Of a DNA stretch of 64,000 nucleotides, positions 22,151-32,496 are shown piece by piece (positions within the stretch are counted from its first letter, which is position 1; each line of letters starts with the position of its first letter). The position numbers were made by a program, and so were the translations under genes. The notes beneath the pieces are model-generated. The model was not told where the DNA came from. It saw nothing but the letters and a program-made list of their open reading frames with translations, and searched no databases. Source of the stretch: a virus. Its lineage: Duplodnaviria > Caudoviricetes. The stretch lies in the IMG/VR virus record IMGVR_UViG_3300050034_000334. One strand, given 5' to 3'.

Positions 22151-22966
22151 ATGAGCCAGATCCGCCTAATGCCAGAGTTGCTTCAAGAAGAGCCGATCTC
22201 CTCTATTCAGAAGTACATCAAGGACAGCCGGTATGGCTTCCAAGAGAAGTACAACGGCAAACGTCGTGTAATCATCCGCGACGGTGGCTATGTCTATTGC
22301 TTGAATAAAGAGAGCGAAGTTCGCGACCTCCCCAGAAGTTTGGCCGCCAAGCTCCTCAGTCATCCTCTTGACAGATTTGTCCTCGACTGCGAACTCATGC
22401 AGGACGAAAGCCTCAAGGTGTTTGATGCGCTCATCCTGGGCAAACACCTGCTGGGCGGCGAAGAGTACACCACTCGCCTGGACATGATCCGCACGGCATT
22501 CGGCAAGTTTGCTTACATCGAAGTTGCTTCGCTTGTAGTCACCGAAAGCGAGAAGAGGCAATTCGCGCAGCGTCTCGAAGGCGAGAATGCTGAGGGCATC
22601 GTAGTTCGCCGCCTGGATGCGACTTACAAGCAGGGTGATTCTCGTCAACATTTTAAGATAAAATTTTGGAAGACAGTTGATACTGTTGTTATCTCATTCG
22701 AACGTACTGATGCAGCAGGTCATCCTACCAGTGTAAATATCGGATGCTACGACAAGAAAGGTCAGCTTCAACGCATTTCAGGTGCCTCTCTGATAGGCAA
22801 AGATCCGAGCATTCGTCCTGGATCGGTTTTGGAAGTGAAATTTCTATACTCTACACCCACTGGTCACATAGTTCAACCGGCTATCTTGGGAGTCCGCGAT
22901 GATAAGAGTCCGGCTTCCTGTACGATGGATAAAGTTCTCAAATACCGCAACAAAAACTGGAAGTAA
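22151..22966 (+). CDS. lig: Minimal ATP-dependent DNA ligase (adenylation + OB fold)
   Basis: QEKYNG motif I, VLDCEL, KVFDAL, AEGIVVR, FKIK, LEVKF..QPAILGVRDDK. Confidence 0.85.
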   Translation: MSQIRLMPELLQEEPISSIQKYIKDSRYGFQEKYNGKRRVIIRDGGYVYCLNKESEVRDLPRSLAAKLLSHPLDRFVLDCELMQDESLKVFDALILGKHLLGGEEYTTRLDMIRTAFGKFAYIEVASLVVTESEKRQFAQRLEGENAEGIVVRRLDATYKQGDSRQHFKIKFWKTVDTVVISFERTDAAGHPTSVNIGCYDKKGQLQRISGASLIGKDPSIRPGSVLEVKFLYSTPTGHIVQPAILGVRDDKSPASCTMDKVLKYRNKNWK

Positions 22967-23009: not shown

Positions 23010-23633
23010 ATGCTTATCTATGTCGTCACCAATTCCATAAATGACAAAGTTTACGTTGGACAACATCGTGGCAATAGAGCAGAACATAGATTAAAGCGAC
23101 ATCTATACGAAGCAGCCCATGGTAGTCAAACTCACTTTCATCGAGCCATAAGGAAGTATGGAGCTTCCAATTTCCGGATACAAGTTCTCTGTAACGATGT
23201 TGGATCTTTGAAGGAATTAGACAATCTGGAACGTATCTGGATAATTCTACTTGATTCTAGAAATACAGGGTACAACCTGGCTCGAGGTGGATCATTTGAA
23301 AATCATGTGGGAGCCAAGGGTTACAAGCACACGGAAATCACTCGTAACCAGATAAGTGTGGCCACTAAAGGAAGACAACCCTCTATTCCCAAAGGTAGTA
23401 CCCGGTCTGAAGATTTCAAGAAGAAAATGAGGAAACCGAAATCGAAAGAACACAAGGAGGCTATGAAAGGCCCCAAATCTGCGTCTCACAGAGAGGCTAT
23501 CAGAGCATCCAAACAGGTCATTTCAGAAGAAACTAGATACCGGCTTCGAAAATCGGCTATCGCTAGAGGAATTCGTCAAAGATTAGCCAAAACCGAGCAT
23601 CTAGCGGTAGAGAACAGTGAGGATACTCCATGA
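23010..23633 (+). CDS. GIY-YIG homing endonuclease with NUMOD3 repeats
   Basis: LIYVVTN..KVYVGQ, FHRAIRKYG, GYNLARGG. Confidence 0.85.
   Translation: MLIYVVTNSINDKVYVGQHRGNRAEHRLKRHLYEAAHGSQTHFHRAIRKYGASNFRIQVLCNDVGSLKELDNLERIWIILLDSRNTGYNLARGGSFENHVGAKGYKHTEITRNQISVATKGRQPSIPKGSTRSEDFKKKMRKPKSKEHKEAMKGPKSASHREAIRASKQVISEETRYRLRKSAIARGIRQRLAKTEHLAVENSEDTP
23584..23613 (+). promoter_or_regulatory. Phage promoter motif TAGCCA-N18-TAGAGA, inside 3' end of HEG
   Basis: Upstream of 23630 gene. Confidence 0.65.
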
Positions 23634-24950: not shown

Positions 24951-26072
24951 ATGGGGAAAGCAAAAGTAACACCGAAGTACCAGCAGTATCTTGGAATCGT
25001 CCGAGATCACTCCGGCTCGATGAGTCATCTTGCTCACGCGGCGGCCAAGGATTACAACACCATCATCGAGGCTCTGAAAGGCGCGGCAGAGTCCAACGGC
25101 GTGAACTCGAATGTATGCGTCGTTCGCTGTGGAGTGGGTCATAGCGGCACCTTCAACTTCGAGAACCTGAACACTCCTCTCAAGGAAATCCAGCCGGTGG
25201 TCAACTACCAGACCGATGGCGGATGGACTCCTCTGTTCGATAGCGTGAACTCTGCCATCGACCAGGTCTCAATGAATGCTGACTCCGACTCCATGCCTGA
25301 CGCCTCCTTCCTCGTCATGGCAATCACTGACGGAGTGGACAACAAGTCCGCGATGACGGCCTCTGGTCTGGCGAATCGCATTCAGTCCTTGCAGACCACC
25401 GACAAGTGGACCTTCGTGTTCCGTGTTCCTATGGGATCCAAGAGGAGACTGGTCAATCTGGGTATCCCTGAGGGCAACATCCTCGAGTGGGTTCAGACTG
25501 TTCAGGGCCTCGAAGAGTCATCGGTCAAGACTGTGGCTGCTGTGTGGACCTACATGGATGAGCAGAGCAGGGGCATCACATCCACTCGCAGCTTCTATGC
25601 AAACCTGGACGACGTGAAGCCGGCAGAGGTTCGCAAGGAGATGACCAACATCACTGCGAAGGTCAAGTTCTTCAAGGTCGGCAAGCCCAAGCTCGTTATC
25701 GGAGTTTCCACCGGCTCCTATCCGACTTACTCCGTTCGCGACTTCATGGAGCGCAGGACTCGGAGACCCTATCAGCCTGGTTCGGCCTTCTACCAGTTGA
25801 CCAAGAGCGAGATTGTTCAGGAGTACAAGCAGATCGCCATTCGGAACAAGAAGTCCTTGGCTGTCTACGTTGGCTCTGAGGCTCGTGAGTTGCTGGGCAT
25901 CCCCACGGTAGGCAGCATCCGGTTGAAGCCTGGAAAGACGAAGGAGTTCACCATCTTCATCCAGTCAACCTCCTACAATCGGGTGCTCGTTACTGGGACG
26001 GAAGCCATGTACTACAAGGGTGCGACCTATCAACCCCGGTTGCGCTTCAAGAAAGCTGTCGCCGCCGCATGA
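24951..26072 (+). CDS. vWA-domain protein with C-terminal beta-domain
   Basis: MIDAS DHSGSM, GWTPLFDSV, AITDGVDN. Confidence 0.82.
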   Translation: MGKAKVTPKYQQYLGIVRDHSGSMSHLAHAAAKDYNTIIEALKGAAESNGVNSNVCVVRCGVGHSGTFNFENLNTPLKEIQPVVNYQTDGGWTPLFDSVNSAIDQVSMNADSDSMPDASFLVMAITDGVDNKSAMTASGLANRIQSLQTTDKWTFVFRVPMGSKRRLVNLGIPEGNILEWVQTVQGLEESSVKTVAAVWTYMDEQSRGITSTRSFYANLDDVKPAEVRKEMTNITAKVKFFKVGKPKLVIGVSTGSYPTYSVRDFMERRTRRPYQPGSAFYQLTKSEIVQEYKQIAIRNKKSLAVYVGSEARELLGIPTVGSIRLKPGKTKEFTIFIQSTSYNRVLVTGTEAMYYKGATYQPRLRFKKAVAAA

Positions 26073-26928: not shown

Positions 26929-26952
26929 GACTGAGACTGAGATTGAGATTGA
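26929..26952 (+). repeat. Four tandem GAYTGA hexamers directly before SD (candidate RNA operator)
   Basis: GACTGA GACTGA GATTGA GATTGA AAGGA. Confidence 0.85.
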
Positions 26953-26965
26953 AAGGAAAAGCAAC

Positions 26966-27751
26966 ATGCCAAAGCTCCACGAACTGCTGGCTGTCCAGGG
27001 AAACTTGAGCGGACAGTCTACCAAGCTGAGAACTGATCTGTCGGTGCTCTTCAAGAGCAAGAAGCACCACTTCACGGAGACCACGAAGATCTTCATCTCC
27101 AGTGAAGAGGGAACTGCGAAGGAACCAGTTCTCGAAGATCAGCAGAACATTCAGACCACGGTTCTCAAGGAGATCACGTGGATTTGCCCACATCTGGCCA
27201 AGTCTCTCGATGTGGCGTTCCAAGTCGACATGGCCAACACCAAGGCGGCTGCTGACGTCATTCCCGAGGAAGGCGAAGAGCCTCTTCTGCGTAACATTCC
27301 AGCGACCACTCTCCTGCAGTTGGAGAAGAGGGTTGTGGAGTGGAAGGCCATGATCGCAGACATCCCCACCCTGGACCCTGCGAAGGGTTTCGAGGTTGAT
27401 CCGAACCACCGGGAAGCCAAGCAGGGCAAGGGCATCTACAAGGCTCGCGAAGTCAAGAAGCCTCGTACGCGCAAGGTCAAGGAAATCATCACGCTGTCGC
27501 CGGCAACGGACAAGTTCGCGGCCAACGTCCAGGTGTATGATGCTGACAAGACCATCGGCCAGACTCAGGAAACTGAGTGGAGTTCCATGATCACCCCGGC
27601 TCTCAAGGCGGATTTGCTGGATCGAGTGGAGACGCTGTTTCGTGCCGTGACCAAGGCTCGCGCCAAGGCCAACGAGTACTCCCTTGAGTCCAAGGAAAAG
27701 ATTGGTTCCACGCTGTTGGAGTACGTTTTCCAGCCGCTGCTTGGAGCCTAA
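26966..27751 (+). CDS. Uncharacterised protein linked to downstream structured RNA
   Basis: MPKLHELLAV..D.ANTKAAADV..IPATTLLQLEK..IPTLDP..RTRK..PAT.K..V..W...FRAV.KAR.KAN; recalled as a widespread unannotated family. Confidence 0.8.
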   Translation: MPKLHELLAVQGNLSGQSTKLRTDLSVLFKSKKHHFTETTKIFISSEEGTAKEPVLEDQQNIQTTVLKEITWICPHLAKSLDVAFQVDMANTKAAADVIPEEGEEPLLRNIPATTLLQLEKRVVEWKAMIADIPTLDPAKGFEVDPNHREAKQGKGIYKAREVKKPRTRKVKEIITLSPATDKFAANVQVYDADKTIGQTQETEWSSMITPALKADLLDRVETLFRAVTKARAKANEYSLESKEKIGSTLLEYVFQPLLGA

Positions 27752-27755
27752 CGAG

Positions 27756-28128
27756 TTGGGTGGACCCGAGAGGGTCAATCCAGGCTAAGACTAACACTCA
27801 GGTGTTTTGGCCTCCCCTCAAAGGGAGTAACCCCAAGACACCTGATCAGACTAAGGCTCAATCCGGCTTCGGAAACCGGACTTAGGCTTTCACCCAAAGG
27901 CTCATCGCGGAGGTAACGATAGTCAATCTAGCAGAACCGACTCTTCAGAGGTCGCTGGTTCGAATCCGGTAGGAGGCCCCACAAAAATTCATGCCTCCTT
28001 AGCTCAGCGGTAGAGCATCTGACTAAGACTTATGGTTCTGAGATGAAAGACGAGACGTTTTCCGCACCCAACATTATCGACTCGATATCGATGATACTTG
28101 GCGCCAGTCGCGTGGTAGCGGCTGGCGC
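27756..28128 (+). ncRNA. Highly structured ~375-nt non-coding RNA
   Basis: TTGGGTG/CACCCAA closing three hairpins; tRNA-like module; ATTATCGA/TCGATGAT and GCGCCAGTCGC/GCGGCTGGCGC hairpins; RRCTHA hexamers. Confidence 0.75.
27926..28044 (+). ncRNA. Circularly permuted tRNA-like module (YrlA-like architecture)
   Basis: TCAGA-GGTC-GCTGG TTCGAAT CCGGT-AGGAGGC-CCCA, linker, GCCTCCT-TA-GCTC AGCGGTA GAGC-A-TCTGA-CT; closed by CAGAACC/GGTTCTG. Confidence 0.8.
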
Positions 28129-28149
28129 GTCAGTGTAAGGAGACAGATT

Positions 28150-28341
28150 ATGCTAGGTCCAGCGTTCTACCTTCACGTCAAACACGCCACCAACGACACC
28201 TGGGTGCAAGTTGGCCCGAACCCCACTCATTGGGGTTTCTTCCACTTCAAGGAATCGGTAGAGAGCATGGAAAAGCTCTTCAAGTCTCTCGGTCTTGAAA
28301 CCAGGATTGAAGAGTTCCAGACAGACTACGACGACAGATGA
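28150..28341 (+). CDS. Hypothetical protein
   Basis: AAGGAG SD. Confidence 0.6.
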   Translation: MLGPAFYLHVKHATNDTWVQVGPNPTHWGFFHFKESVESMEKLFKSLGLETRIEEFQTDYDDR

Positions 28342-30246: not shown

Positions 30247-32496
30247 CTATTCTGTTTCCACAACGACAATAGCTGGGAATTCTTTGATTCCCATAAGCAG
30301 AAGGGCATCAAATCTGTGGCCGCCTTCAAGAATGTAGTAGTCCTCAAGGTTACTCAGATTGTCTATCACTACAATGAGAGGATTAATCTCCATAGACTCT
30401 ATAATTTCACTCTTGAGTCTTTTCGTATACCGATCTTCACTGCTTGAATGTGGAACATACTCGTACTCCTTCTCGGATTTCATTTTCACAACACGAACAC
30501 CTGGAAGTTCAGTCCAATCCTCATCGTTGTTATAGCCAGCTGAAATGGACTCAAGATTAGGAATCGTTCCTCTGACCTTCAGACTACCACAGGTGTCTCC
30601 CAGCATCTTCGGATAGAGCTTGTCGAGTTCTGACAGGGTCTCGTCATCGTCATCAACAGCTGCAGTCTTCGAGATGCAAGGGATCCTCCAACCCATGAGG
30701 TTCAAGTTGTCCACCTTGAATCCGAGCCTCTTCACCATCGCCACATAGAGAGGAGTTTTGTCCGGGTTGTGACTCGCGATCACCAACTCGCCATACTTCT
30801 GCAGCCAGTGATTGAGGACCCTCTTGACTTCTGCCAACGATCCCTTGCCCCTCGAATTCGGAGTCTTGGTCAGCTGCTGCATGGGATCAAAAGCATCCAT
30901 GCCGATCCGCTGCAGTCCGACCTGGTAGATGTTGGGAATCATCCCACTCTTGACCACCATGAGTTCGTACTCTCCAATGGTGGCCTCTTCCACGATCTTG
31001 TCTCCCGAGAGAGCCATGTAACGCTGTCCTGTTTCAGAGACGGCCACGGCCTCCTTGTGAGAACCTCCCATGTTGAATTCGTAGTAGGATCCCTGGCCAT
31101 TGTAGGAGTCAGGAACCTCCGTCCCTCCGAGTTTCTTCACCATGGCCTGAGAGGCATAGTTGTCATTTTCGATGTAGGTCTTGGCGTGCTTGTATCCCAT
31201 CTCAGCAATCTTGCCGAGAGCACTCTTCATGAGTTCGGGACCAAATCCTCTGTAGCGAATGTCGCTGTCAAGTCTGTTGAGATAGGCTTCACCATCTGCT
31301 CCAAGATCCACTGTGAAGTTTACCACAACCTTGTCAGTGAAGTTGACCTTGGTCAGCCAGTCATGTGCTTCCGGCTTCAGAGTACCCTCGAAGAAGAGAC
31401 GCTGTGGAGATCCTGTGACCTGGACCTTGAGCCGGGGAGTCTCATAGTCCTCGACAATTTTGGTGCTGGCGACCTTTGCAGGCTCAATCTCCTTGAGCTT
31501 CTTTTCAATCCCATATTCATTGCTGAAGTACTCTACGGCAGCCTTCTCATCGAAGTCAGCGAATCCGTAGTTTGGTTCCTTCATGACTATTCGATGATCA
31601 AGATCTCCATCTCCTCCATCCATTCTTGAATTCTGACCTGTGTCATTGATCAGATCAGCAGCTTCGGAAAGAGCAAGATTCTGAGCCTTCTCGTTCAGTG
31701 TCTTTTTATCAGTGTCTTTCTCTTTCCCAAAATACGTGTAAGCCTTGTTAGAACCCATCTGTATCAGCTCCAGCTTGGCCCAACGCAAAAACCATACGAT
31801 GCGATAGTTCTTATGAAGATTGTTCTTGGCCCAGTTGATCTCATCCTGGATGTCCTGATGAAGAGAGATGGCAACACCGGACTTACCATCCACAGGAGGT
31901 AGAGCATTCTGAATTATGCTATTCAGGCCGGCAAACATCTCGTCATAGTTGGCCTCAGCTTCGATCTGAAAGCTGGCTTGCTTCTCAGGCGGAGGAGTCG
32001 TGTGCAGTAGATGATCCGCAGGCAACTCACAGGCTTTGCATTCTGGACTACCCTCTTGAGGAACGAACTTGTGACGACCGTAAGGCCACCACTCTCTGTG
32101 GGCGGCGGCTGTCTTAGGATCCTCATCCATGTTATCTTCCGCGACGTCAAGGAACTCCTCGACCGGAACCTCATGGATGGCCTGTACCCGCGTCTCCCTC
32201 CAACCTGGATCAAATTGGGCGAGATAGACCGCTTCAGCTTCAGGCAAGGATTCGAAGCCCAACATCACCTTGTACTCATCGAAGGAACCATCCTCCTTGA
32301 GTTGCTCCACCACATAAGCGTGCGGGGAGTGGTGATCATCTCCGACATACACGTCCACGGCCTCTCCATCGCCTCTCCCGGTTGTATCGGGGATGAAGCC
32401 ATAGTCGGCTTGCAGGATGCGATTGTGCCGGCGCTCGCCCTTCCACTTTTCAACCGTTACGGGAAGCCCTCTAAAGAGGTAATCGTGATCGTCCAT
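30247..32496 (-). CDS. Polyvalent mosaic protein: inorganic pyrophosphatase-like, GNAT, ParB-like domains
   Basis: DYGFIPDT..DGEAVDVYVG..FDEYKVMLGF; RYRGFG..YIENDNYASQ; INPLIV..ILEGGHRF. Confidence 0.8.
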   Translation of the reverse strand: MDDHDYLFRGLPVTVEKWKGERRHNRILQADYGFIPDTTGRGDGEAVDVYVGDDHHSPHAYVVEQLKEDGSFDEYKVMLGFESLPEAEAVYLAQFDPGWRETRVQAIHEVPVEEFLDVAEDNMDEDPKTAAAHREWWPYGRHKFVPQEGSPECKACELPADHLLHTTPPPEKQASFQIEAEANYDEMFAGLNSIIQNALPPVDGKSGVAISLHQDIQDEINWAKNNLHKNYRIVWFLRWAKLELIQMGSNKAYTYFGKEKDTDKKTLNEKAQNLALSEAADLINDTGQNSRMDGGDGDLDHRIVMKEPNYGFADFDEKAAVEYFSNEYGIEKKLKEIEPAKVASTKIVEDYETPRLKVQVTGSPQRLFFEGTLKPEAHDWLTKVNFTDKVVVNFTVDLGADGEAYLNRLDSDIRYRGFGPELMKSALGKIAEMGYKHAKTYIENDNYASQAMVKKLGGTEVPDSYNGQGSYYEFNMGGSHKEAVAVSETGQRYMALSGDKIVEEATIGEYELMVVKSGMIPNIYQVGLQRIGMDAFDPMQQLTKTPNSRGKGSLAEVKRVLNHWLQKYGELVIASHNPDKTPLYVAMVKRLGFKVDNLNLMGWRIPCISKTAAVDDDDETLSELDKLYPKMLGDTCGSLKVRGTIPNLESISAGYNNDEDWTELPGVRVVKMKSEKEYEYVPHSSSEDRYTKRLKSEIIESMEINPLIVVIDNLSNLEDYYILEGGHRFDALLLMGIKEFPAIVVVETE

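What the first reader, a model, noticed from the sequence alone, without database searches (positions are those of the whole stretch)
27926..28044. Circularly permuted tRNA-like module with NCCA and no anticodon loop
Seen: the tRNA 3' half comes first: TCAGA (27945-49), variable loop GGTC, T arm GCTGG-TTCGAAT-CCGGT, acceptor strand AGGAGGC, then C-CCA (27978-81). After an 11-nt linker comes the 5' half: GCCTCCT (27993-99, perfect complement), TA, D arm GCTC-AGCGGTA-GAGC, A, TCTGA, CT. The break is at the anticodon loop, which is replaced by a helix closed by CAGAACC/GGTTCTG and ATCT/AGAT. Known: bacterial YrlA Y RNAs have a permuted T/acceptor/D module and partner Ro60; permuted tRNA genes exist in red algae and some archaea. 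No Ro60/TROVE gene is in this window. Inference: an elbow-presenting tRNA mimic that anticodon nucleases could not cut, or a precursor processed at the linker.
Basis: partly seen in the sequence, partly recalled or inferred. Interest (0 to 1): 0.85.

Follow-up and report, generated by a model that had tools for sequence, protein, structure and literature searches.

The report
Inside-out tRNA mimic of a phage Y-like RNA
A peat jumbo phage encodes a tRNA look-alike with its two halves swapped and no anticodon loop; it is the core of a Y-RNA-like molecule that always follows one unknown gene (DUF7873), sits beside a Ro60 gene in sister strains, and in environmental RNA data ends at its encoded CCA with extra CCA units added.

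Summary
T arm, 3' acceptor strand and C-CCA (27954-27981) come before an 11-nt linker, the 5' acceptor strand and the D arm (27993-28016). A bulged helix stands where the anticodon loop would be.

It is the tRNA-like module of a ~310-nt conserved RNA (27756-28065) of the YrlA / Y-RNA kind. Rfam YrlA matches full length at 37 bits, below the 69-bit cut-off.

- **Partner gene:** the RNA lies just after a DUF7873 gene (26966-27751). My covariance model finds the same module there in 81 of 81 informative phage loci and in about 71 of 80 bacterial loci.
- **Ro60:** the window has none, but six contigs at least 97% identical over the shared part carry a Ro60 gene directly upstream of DUF7873. Most complete DUF7873 phage records lack Ro60.
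- **Processing:** in two of four metatranscriptome assemblies the RNA ends at the encoded CCA followed by untemplated CCA repeats, so it is cut in the linker.

This scan has met the DUF7873 and tRNA-mimic pairing before on other DNA. New here are the Ro60 presence/absence variants and the RNA-end data.

Verdict: a real feature, a new variant of a known kind.

The parts
26929..26952 (+). Tandem GAYTGA hexamers (include UGAGACU) abutting the ribosome-binding site of the DUF7873 gene
   Evidence: Sequence; TGAGACT at 26932. An X14 variant has GAGACTCAGACTGAAAGG at the same place (loose end). Not general in the family.
26966..27751 (+). DUF7873 gene (261 aa), the constant neighbour of the RNA
   Evidence: Pfam PF25283, E 7e-57. 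561 homologues. AF2 model pLDDT 83.9 with no convincing fold match.
27756..27897 (+). 5' domain of the RNA. TTGGGTG/CACCCAA closes a hairpin GACCC-GAGA-GGGTC, single-stranded UNAGRCU repeats, a window-specific hairpin (about 27800-27845) and a TCCGG/CCGGA hairpin
   Evidence: Conserved in 8 relatives. One compensatory change in L023 supports the long-range closure. A 16-nt indel at 27815 in a variant.
27907..27944 (+). 5' strand of the long bulged closing helix: GCGGA 27907-11, conserved ACGAUAG 27916-22, ATCT 27926-29, CAGAACC 27932-38
   Evidence: RNAalifold pairs with compensatory changes.
27945..27953 (+). 3' strand of the anticodon-stem analogue (TCAGA) and variable region GGTC
   Evidence: 14-19 double changes per pair, helix 1.
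27954..27970 (+). T arm GCTGG-TTCGAAT-CCGGT
27971..27977 (+). 3' strand of the 7-bp acceptor stem
27978..27981 (+). Discriminator C plus encoded CCA; the RNA 3' end seen in metatranscriptome contigs, extended by untemplated CCA repeats
   Evidence: NCCA in 57 of 65 phage modules. X16 and X18 contigs stop matching at 27982 and run on as CACCACCAC... (X16: then Illumina adapter).
27982..27992 (+). A-rich linker CAAAAATTCAT capping the acceptor stem, with U at -1 before the 5' strand; predicted to be removed
   Evidence: No X16 contig covers 27983-28002.
27993..27999 (+). 5' strand of the acceptor stem; predicted RNase P site just before G27993
   Evidence: The RNase P site is inferred from Chen et al. 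2014.
28002..28016 (+). D arm GCTC-AGCGGTA-GAGC with G18 G19
28018..28022 (+). 5' strand of the anticodon-stem analogue (TCTGA)
28023..28033 (+). Internal loop CTAAGACTTAT where the anticodon loop would be; holds one UNAGRCU copy (28024-30)
28034..28065 (+). 3' strand of the long closing helix: GGTTCTG 28034-40, AGAT 28041-44, CGT 28056-58, TCCGC 28061-65
28076..28097 (+). Remnant of a tRNA gene (ATCGACT ... ATCGATGATAC). Eight relatives have an intact tRNA here
   Evidence: Alignment A2; no tRNA in the window.
28100..28129 (+). G+C-rich hairpin before the next gene (ATG at 28150); no U tract
   Evidence: no terminator-like site.

Best explanation
The flagged stretch is the tRNA-like module of a ~310-nt non-coding RNA (about 27756-28065, + strand) of the YrlA / bacterial Y-RNA kind. 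T arm, 7-bp acceptor stem and D arm are kept, so the tRNA elbow and acceptor end are presented. The anticodon arm is replaced by a long bulged helix made from the RNA's flanks.

The RNA is encoded directly behind a DUF7873 gene and appears on the same RNA-library contigs as that gene. In sister strains the cassette is Ro60 - DUF7873 - RNA; this variant has other DNA where Ro60 would be.

Shown:
- The structure and its covariation.
- The constant linkage to DUF7873.
- The loose linkage to Ro60.
- Presence in RNA libraries.
- In two of four such libraries, a 3' end at the encoded CCA carrying extra CCA units.

Inferred:
- RNase P cuts before G27993, and a CCA-adding enzyme re-extends the exposed end, as published for M. 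smegmatis YrlA. This would give a two-piece tRNA mimic.
- The RNA works as the scaffold of a ribonucleoprotein with DUF7873, and with Ro60 where present. That particle would act on tRNA or structured-RNA quality control, or act as a decoy during infection.
For: - Anatomy exact; re-permuted halves give a tRNA call.
- RF02553 aligns over 1-114/114 at E 1.7e-6, and likewise in Rhizobium phage RHph_Y65.
- All 20 core pairs show compensatory changes. The anticodon-stem analogue, which my scan did not pre-select, has 14-19 double changes per pair.
- Independent bacterial set: 98% paired, covariation 0.708 against at most 0.151 for slid controls.
- The closing helix covaries in close relatives.
- Model R1 hits just downstream of DUF7873 in 81 of 81 informative phage loci and about 71 of 80 bacterial loci. 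No other conserved neighbouring gene was found.
- Ro60 (vWA_Ro60 E 7e-53, TROVE E 3e-31) lies directly upstream of DUF7873 in six contigs. They encode the identical DUF7873 protein and match the window at 97.6-100% over the shared part.
- NCCA follows the acceptor strand in 57 of 65 phage modules.
- High-depth metatranscriptome contigs of two studies end at 27982 and continue as CCA repeats, one then into adapter. Depth falls from 380 and 297 to 9-16 downstream.
- M. smegmatis YrlA is cut by RNase P and gains CCA in vivo (PMC4201824).
Against: - The YrlA score (37 bits) is far below Rfam's gathering score (69).
- The published Ro60 site motif GNCGAAN0-1G is not clearly present; there is only a conserved ACGAUAG.
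- Ro60 is absent from the window, from 19 of 21 near-complete DUF7873 phage records and from 20 of 40 bacterial genomes.
- The RNA data are assembled contigs, not reads. Two of four runs (X6, X14) show only the unprocessed, bridging form, and DNA carry-over in RNA libraries cannot be excluded.
- The 5' end at 27993 was not resolved.
- The 20-40-fold lower depth of the downstream half argues against a stable equimolar two-piece molecule.
- There are no binding data for DUF7873, and its pI is neutral at 6.99.
Confidence: 0.72

Rival explanations
1. A Ro60-independent particle. DUF7873 is the true and sufficient partner of this tRNA mimic. The acceptor end (NCCA, with CCA repeats) is the working part, for example as a decoy or sponge for enzymes or toxins that act on tRNA 3' ends or elbows. 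Ro60 is an occasional add-on.
For: DUF7873 and the RNA are paired in 81 of 81 phage loci and about 71 of 80 bacterial loci. Ro60 is absent from most carriers. There is no other conserved neighbour. The encoded NCCA is enriched in phages (57 of 65) against bacteria (14 of 57). CCA-repeat tails are seen.
Against: There are no binding or phenotype data. Where Ro60 is present it lies near DUF7873, from adjacent to about 19 kb away. DUF7873 is not basic and has no recognisable RNA-binding fold. An earlier in-scan check priced this reading low.
Confidence: 0.25
2. A genuine circularly permuted tRNA gene. Its transcript would be circularised or trans-joined and then processed into a working tRNA, as in the red alga Cyanidioschyzon merolae.
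For: All tRNA parts except the anticodon loop are present. The halves re-joined with a dummy loop are called a tRNA. The CCA is encoded, and the flanks pair.
Against: No anticodon loop exists in any of more than 150 homologues. The anticodon-stem analogue (5 bp here, 4 conserved in the family) runs on into a long bulged helix. The acceptor sequence and the discriminator vary freely (C 21, T 16, G 14, A 6), so no aminoacylation identity is conserved. No joints or back-splice contigs were seen (table 5).
Confidence: 0.02
3. A decayed junction of two tandem tRNA genes (3' half of one, spacer, 5' half of the next) with no function of its own.
For: Dimeric tRNAs are known false positives of YrlA searches (PMC4201824). 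Weak R1 hits fall on tandem tRNA junctions in L001. A tRNA remnant lies just downstream.
Against: The 3' half pairs with the downstream 5' half in both the acceptor and the anticodon-stem analogue, with covariation across phyla. The position after DUF7873 is fixed. The flanking helix is conserved.
Confidence: 0.02
4. A permuted (two-piece) tmRNA gene.
For: The gene order (T arm, acceptor strand-CCA, spacer, 5' strand) is that of permuted ssrA. The Vibrio phage K479 homologue partly matches the beta_tmRNA model at 25 bits.
Against: ARAGORN, which detects permuted tmRNA, finds none. There is no tag reading frame or pseudoknot. The D arm is canonical. Position 3:70 is C-G rather than G-U. The Rfam tmRNA families fall below threshold.
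Confidence: 0.01

Closest known systems
YrlA (Y RNA-like A, Rfam RF02553), the tRNA-mimicking Y RNA bound by bacterial and phage Ro60/Rsr (Chen et al. 2014, PMC4201824)
   Same: Same arm order: the RNA ends pair where the anticodon arm would be, followed by the variable region, T arm, capped acceptor-like stem and D arm. The T and D loop nucleotides are conserved. The module sits on a long bulged 5'/3' helix. Like M. smegmatis YrlA it has a 7-bp acceptor stem and a CCA-ending 3' half. In sister strains the locus includes Ro60.
   Different: It scores 37 bits against the 69-bit family cut-off. The acceptor cap is a 7-83-nt linker that begins with a genomically encoded NCCA. The GNCGAA Ro60 motif is not clear. 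An extra ~140-nt 5' domain carries UNAGRCU repeats. The invariant neighbour is DUF7873, not Ro60, and most carriers have no Ro60.
CCACCA tagging of unstable tRNAs and tRNA-like RNAs by the CCA-adding enzyme (summarised in Wellner et al. 2018, PMC5824355)
   Same: Untemplated CCA units are added in phase after an existing CCA on a tRNA-shaped acceptor end.
   Different: The literature I read describes two rounds (CCACCA). Here the contigs show at least five to eight extra units. The 5' strand starts GC, not the GG described for refolding. No enzyme has been assigned.
Circularly permuted tRNA genes (Cyanidioschyzon merolae; from my own knowledge) and two-piece tmRNA genes
   Same: The 3' half with CCA is encoded upstream of the 5' half, and processing removes the spacer.
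   Different: No anticodon loop, no tag ORF, and no sign of circular or joined forms.
Thermus phage phiLo Ro60 with Yrl1/Yrl2 (PMC12135203)
   Same: A phage-encoded Ro60 with Y-like RNAs encoded next to it.
   Different: Those Yrls are described as stem-bulge-stem RNAs with a CGAA motif. No tRNA-like module and no DUF7873 gene are mentioned in the passages I read.

Membership tests
YrlA / bacterial Y RNA (RF02553) | Permuted tRNA-like domain: T arm, capped acceptor-like stem, D arm, with the RNA ends pairing where the anticodon arm would be | tested here: met
YrlA / bacterial Y RNA (RF02553) | Score at or above Rfam's gathering threshold (69 bits) | tested here: not met
   37.1 bits, E 1.7e-6 in a 651-nt search; no hit at gathering threshold.
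YrlA / bacterial Y RNA (RF02553) | Encoded next to a Ro60/Rsr (TROVE) gene | tested here: inconclusive
   Not in this window. Yes in six contigs that encode the identical DUF7873 protein. Only 7 of 50 related viral records hold TROVE at all.
YrlA / bacterial Y RNA (RF02553) | Ro60-binding helix with the GNCGAAN0-1G motif in the 5' strand | tested here: inconclusive
   The long bulged helix is present. Only a related, subfamily-conserved ACGAUAG (27916-22) is seen.
YrlA / bacterial Y RNA (RF02553) | Physically bound by Ro60 | not testable with these tools
   Needs co-immunoprecipitation or a gel-shift assay.
YrlA, M. smegmatis type | Cleaved in the acceptor cap (RNase P) and carries CCA on the 3' half | tested here: inconclusive
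   A 3' end at CCA plus CCA repeats is seen in 2 of 4 RNA-run assemblies. The 5' end was not resolved, and these are contigs only.
Circularly permuted tRNA gene | Complete tRNA including a 7-nt anticodon loop after re-joining | tested here: not met
   No anticodon loop; a bulged helix stands in its place. No joints were seen.
Two-piece tmRNA | Tag reading frame, pseudoknots, G3-U70 | tested here: not met
   ARAGORN finds none. Position 3:70 is C-G. There is no tmRNA hit in the window.
DUF7873-linked tRNA-mimic RNA (unpublished grouping seen repeatedly by this scan) | tRNA-mimic RNA on the same strand within a few hundred nt downstream of a DUF7873 gene | tested here: met
   Gene 26966-27751, RNA from 27756. 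The pairing holds in 81 of 81 phage and about 71 of 80 bacterial loci.
DUF7873-linked tRNA-mimic RNA (unpublished grouping seen repeatedly by this scan) | Two tandem tRNA-like modules in one RNA, as in the bacterial loci | tested here: not met
   Only one R1 hit in the window. The 5' domain has no T-loop-like module. Bacterial loci show two.

The most novel reading that the evidence does not exclude
DUF7873 plus the inside-out tRNA form a widespread ribonucleoprotein that does not need Ro60. [quoted passage not shown] The long CCA-repeat tail seen here would then be part of its function, for example as a decoy or sink for factors that act on tRNA 3' ends or elbows during phage-host conflict, rather than a mere degradation tag.
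Probability: 0.2. Interest if true: 0.85.

Novelty: new variant of a known kind. Interest (0 to 1): 0.62.

Why it matters
Bacterial Y RNAs are known only as partners of Ro60. Here the same kind of tRNA mimic is tied far more tightly to an uncharacterised protein family (DUF7873) that I could not find in any paper searched. The pairing spans hundreds of phages and many bacterial phyla.

This locus gives two things the earlier sightings lacked:
- Natural sister strains with and without Ro60 next to the same DUF7873-RNA cassette. This places DUF7873 inside the Ro60/Y-RNA neighbourhood and offers a ready-made genetic comparison.
- Environmental RNA evidence that the mimic is expressed, cut in its acceptor cap and extended by repeated CCA addition.

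If confirmed, it would add a new protein to Y-RNA biology. It would also add a case of many-round CCA addition, which I did not find in the papers read.

Tried and rejected
- **Standard RNA scans.** ARAGORN and Rfam at gathering threshold found nothing.
- **The window's own genome.** The assembly is not held. The nearest record, G001, has neither TROVE nor the RNA.
- **DNA and pattern searches.** blastn of the locus against cultured phages found no match. The search for related loci with the single protein failed and worked only with an alignment.
- **Fold and function of DUF7873.** None of the following gave a lead beyond uncharacterised homologues or generic helical bundles:
  - Foldseek against PDB
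  - VIA-align wide (best Z 8.9 to designed helical proteins)
  - AFDB clusters
  - PDB sequence profile
  - ESM Atlas
  - PHROGs
- **Conserved protein neighbours of DUF7873 in 80 bacterial loci.** None, apart from antisense ORF artefacts.
- **Own CCA-adding enzyme.** Only 1 of 24 DUF7873 phages encodes a PF01743 enzyme, so I dropped the idea that these phages generally bring their own.
- **UNAGRCU-like motifs in the DUF7873 5' UTR.** Present in only a few lineages, so not a family feature.
- **Promoter and terminator scan.** Nothing around the locus.
- **Papers not held.** Burroughs and Aravind 2016 and Sim et al. 2020 are not in the library, so their content is not used as evidence.
- **Rejected readings.** Permuted tRNA gene, tandem-tRNA remnant and two-piece tmRNA were considered and rejected (see the rival explanations).

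Full report
**1. The observation**

- 27945-49 TCAGA, then 27950-53 GGTC
- T arm 27954-70 (GCTGG-TTCGAAT-CCGGT)
- 3' acceptor strand AGGAGGC 27971-77, then C-CCA 27978-81
- an 11-nt linker, 27982-92
- the perfectly complementary 5' strand GCCTCCT, 27993-99
- TA, then the D arm GCTC-AGCGGTA-GAGC at 28002-16, then A
- TCTGA 28018-22
- the closing helices CAGAACC/GGTTCTG and ATCT/AGAT

ARAGORN sees no tRNA or tmRNA in the window. When I swap the two halves back and bridge them with any 7-nt loop, ARAGORN calls a 74-nt tRNA; in the native order it calls none. So the circular permutation, the encoded NCCA and the missing anticodon loop are all real. The folding energy of the single sequence is unremarkable (z = -1.19). 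The case therefore rests on comparison with relatives.

**2. What it resembles in the RNA family library**

At Rfam's gathering thresholds nothing in the window matches. With permissive thresholds YrlA (RF02553) aligns over its whole length (1-114 of 114) at 27933-28042. The score is 37.1 bits and E is 1.7e-6, well below the family cut-off of 69 bits. The alignment shows why. In this RNA the acceptor stem is capped by a 16-nt insert that starts with CCA, where the model has about 2 nt. The lower helices also differ.

**3. The constant neighbour**

The ORF that ends 5 nt before the conserved RNA (26966-27751) is a full-length member of Pfam DUF7873 (E 7e-57).
- The family has 561 homologues in the large protein collection.
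- It occurs in 75 cultured phage records from Vibrio, Rhizobium, Gordonia, Klebsiella, Serratia, Arthrobacter and cyanophages.
- In Rhizobium phage RHph_Y65 and Vibrio phage K479 the gene sits inside tRNA gene clusters. It is followed by an unannotated gap holding the same kind of module: YrlA 36.2 bits in one, and T arm, acceptor, CCACCA in the other.

I fetched 80 viral loci with a DUF7873 alignment. A simple structural scan found the module downstream of the gene in about 70 of them. A covariance model built from 39 of these then hit just downstream of the gene, on the same strand, in 81 of 81 informative phage loci. That set is the 80 viral loci plus the two cultured-phage loci, minus one cut short.

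DUF7873 is also common in bacterial genomes: at least 498 matches, in Streptomyces, Nonomuraea, Nocardia, Sorangium, Planctomycetota, Abditibacterium, Deinococcus and others. In 80 such loci the model hits about 71 at E up to 1e-3, often as two tandem modules. No other protein-coding neighbour is conserved there.

**4. Structure support**

In the phage alignment all 20 core pairs show compensatory changes. The 4-bp analogue of the anticodon stem, which my scan had not pre-selected, has 14-19 double changes per pair.

The bacterial matches were not used to build the model, although they were aligned to it. In that set 98% of cells are paired, against 40-51% for slid partners, and the covariation score is 0.708 against at most 0.151.

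Among the eight closest relatives the conservation runs from TTGGGTG (27756) to TCCGC (28065). The consensus fold puts the tRNA module on top of a long bulged helix (27907-27944 with 28034-65), and that helix covaries. So the flagged 119 nt are the centre of a ~310-nt RNA.

The 5' domain (27756-27897) is not a second tRNA-like module, unlike in the bacterial loci. It carries a repeated heptamer, UNAGRCU. Five copies lie on the + strand between 27786 and 28030, one of them in the loop that replaces the anticodon loop. The whole window has only 57 on both strands, so about 0.17 would be expected in 340 nt. The shorter AGRYU core is 2.5-3-fold enriched in the RNA region across 36 loci.

**5. Ro60**

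The window holds no TROVE protein, by three tests:
- Pfam on the long ORFs.
- tblastn with a closely related phage Ro60.
- A jackhmmer profile over all window ORFs of 80 aa or more.

But contigs that encode the identical 261-aa DUF7873 protein tell more. Six of them come from several samples. They match the window at 97.6-100% from 26753 onward (97.6% over a short L087 piece; 98.7-99.9% over the longer alignments). They carry a 579-aa Ro60 gene (vWA_Ro60 E 7e-53, TROVE E 3e-31) that ends 21 nt before that breakpoint. One contig shares the window's Ro60-less arrangement. The DNA upstream of Ro60 is also unrelated to the window, so a cassette of at least 3.3 kb differs between the two forms.

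Across the wider family Ro60 is a minority companion:
- 7 of 50 viral records hold TROVE, and 2 of 21 near-complete ones.
- In a separate set of five records, 2 hold it.
- 20 of 40 bacterial genomes hold it, mostly far from DUF7873.
- Where a phage has it, it lies from directly adjacent to about 19 kb from DUF7873.

So the RNA belongs to the Ro60/Y-RNA neighbourhood, but its obligate genomic partner is DUF7873.

**6. The encoded CCA and the RNA data**

NCCA follows the 3' acceptor strand in 57 of 65 non-redundant phage modules. In bacterial modules it is 14 of 57, and there the cap is usually a 6-9-nt loop. The phage linkers are A-rich and usually end in AU(G), which puts a U at -1 of the 5' strand.

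Six metatranscriptome runs from peat, wetland and permafrost hold this stretch. I laid the assembled contigs of four of them.
- In two runs from different studies, high-depth contigs (380 and 297) cover the DUF7873 gene and the RNA up to 27982 and then stop matching.
- In X16 the contig continues as CACCACCACCACCAC and then Illumina adapter.
- In X18 a short branch contig continues as CACCACCACCACCACCACCACCAC. Another low-depth branch (16) follows the genomic linker.
- Read from the discriminator, the RNA is therefore ...AGGAGGC-C-CCA-(CCA)n.
- Downstream contigs have depth 9-16, and in X16 nothing covers 27983-28002.
- In the other two runs (X6, X14) a single contig bridges the linker at high depth, so the unprocessed form, or carried-over DNA, dominates there.

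These are contigs, which cannot count ends. Even so, a tail in phase with the encoded CCA, seen in two studies and once followed by adapter, is hard to explain except as a true RNA 3' end re-extended by a CCA-adding activity. It matches the published behaviour of M. smegmatis YrlA: a 7-bp acceptor stem, RNase P cleavage, and a CCA-ending half (PMC4201824). It resembles CCACCA tagging (PMC5824355), except that at least five to eight extra units appear.

**7. DUF7873 itself**

The AF2 model is confident (pLDDT 83.9). It shows four long helices plus long beta hairpins. No search gave a meaningful relative or function. No paper in the library mentions DUF7873 or PF25283. Its pI is neutral. Many invariant His, Asp and Glu residues leave an enzymatic role open.

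**8. Mechanism and rivals**

Most likely (0.72) this is a YrlA-class tRNA mimic that is expressed behind DUF7873 and processed in its acceptor cap. What the particle does is unknown.

The acceptor sequence and the discriminator vary freely. Aminoacylation identity is therefore not conserved, which favours a structural mimic of the elbow and acceptor end over a charged adaptor.

The rival worth keeping is a Ro60-independent DUF7873 particle (about 0.25 as a family-level claim). A true permuted tRNA gene, a tandem-tRNA remnant and a two-piece tmRNA are each contradicted by tests made here.

**9. Relation to earlier notes of this scan**

The scan has flagged the DUF7873 plus tRNA-mimic pairing on other genomes many times. 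My independent tests agree with the pairing. A later in-scan check remarked that no transcript or processing datum existed. supplies a first one, of limited quality.

Notes on other windows of this same genome mention further permuted tRNA mimics, tRNA arrays and a cca gene. I could not verify them, because the assembly is not held.

**10. Verdict**

The feature is a new variant of a known kind, the YrlA-type Y RNA. It has an unpublished constant protein partner and unusual CCA-repeat tails.

Noticed in passing
window 28076-28097: Remnant of a tRNA gene (ATCGACT ... ATCGATGATAC). All eight close relatives have an intact tRNA (for example anticodon TGT or TCT) directly after the RNA. The window has no tRNA gene at all.
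   Followed up: partly
window 27786, 27846, 27852, 27882, 28024 (+ strand): Heptamer UNAGRCU repeated five times within the RNA, about 30-fold over expectation. It reads like a Leu (NAG) anticodon loop, CU-NAG-RC. The meaning is unknown; it may be a protein-binding repeat.
   Followed up: partly
window 26929-26952: Four tandem GAYTGA hexamers, containing UGAGACU, lie directly before the ribosome-binding site of the DUF7873 gene. A variant in run X14 has GAGACTCAGACTGAAAGG there. This may be an autoregulatory site sharing the RNA's motif. It is seen in only a few lineages (window, L019, L007).
   Followed up: partly
window upstream of 26753, against L175:1-3304: A cassette swap between strains. 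Sister strains have at least 3.3 kb here, including Ro60 and an upstream ORF with a NUMOD-like basic motif. The window has unrelated genes instead (phrog_26613 at 24951-26072 and small ORFs).
   Followed up: partly
window 23010-23633 (+): GIY-YIG / NUMOD3 homing-endonuclease-like gene about 3 kb upstream of the swapped region. It may bear on the cassette exchange.
   Followed up: no
window 27815 (16 nt) and 28058 (1 nt): A variant in run X18 lacks 16 nt inside the window-specific hairpin of the 5' domain. All four RNA-run assemblies have one T fewer in the T run at 28058-61.
   Followed up: no
window 30247-32496 (-): A 749-aa protein with an N-terminal InPase domain (PF18823, E 1.7e-26) and a weak, sub-cut-off match to the FR47 GNAT-like domain.
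   Followed up: no
window 22151-22966 (+): ATP-dependent DNA ligase core (PF01068, E 2e-11). It is the ligase that another first-stage note on this window pairs with a phage Ku.
   Followed up: no
L098, L112, L125 and many other bacterial loci, about 80-500 nt after DUF7873: Bacterial versions carry two tandem tRNA-like modules about 145 nt apart, with short 4-9-nt acceptor caps and mostly no CCA. The phage clade of this window has one module plus a different 5' domain.
   Followed up: partly
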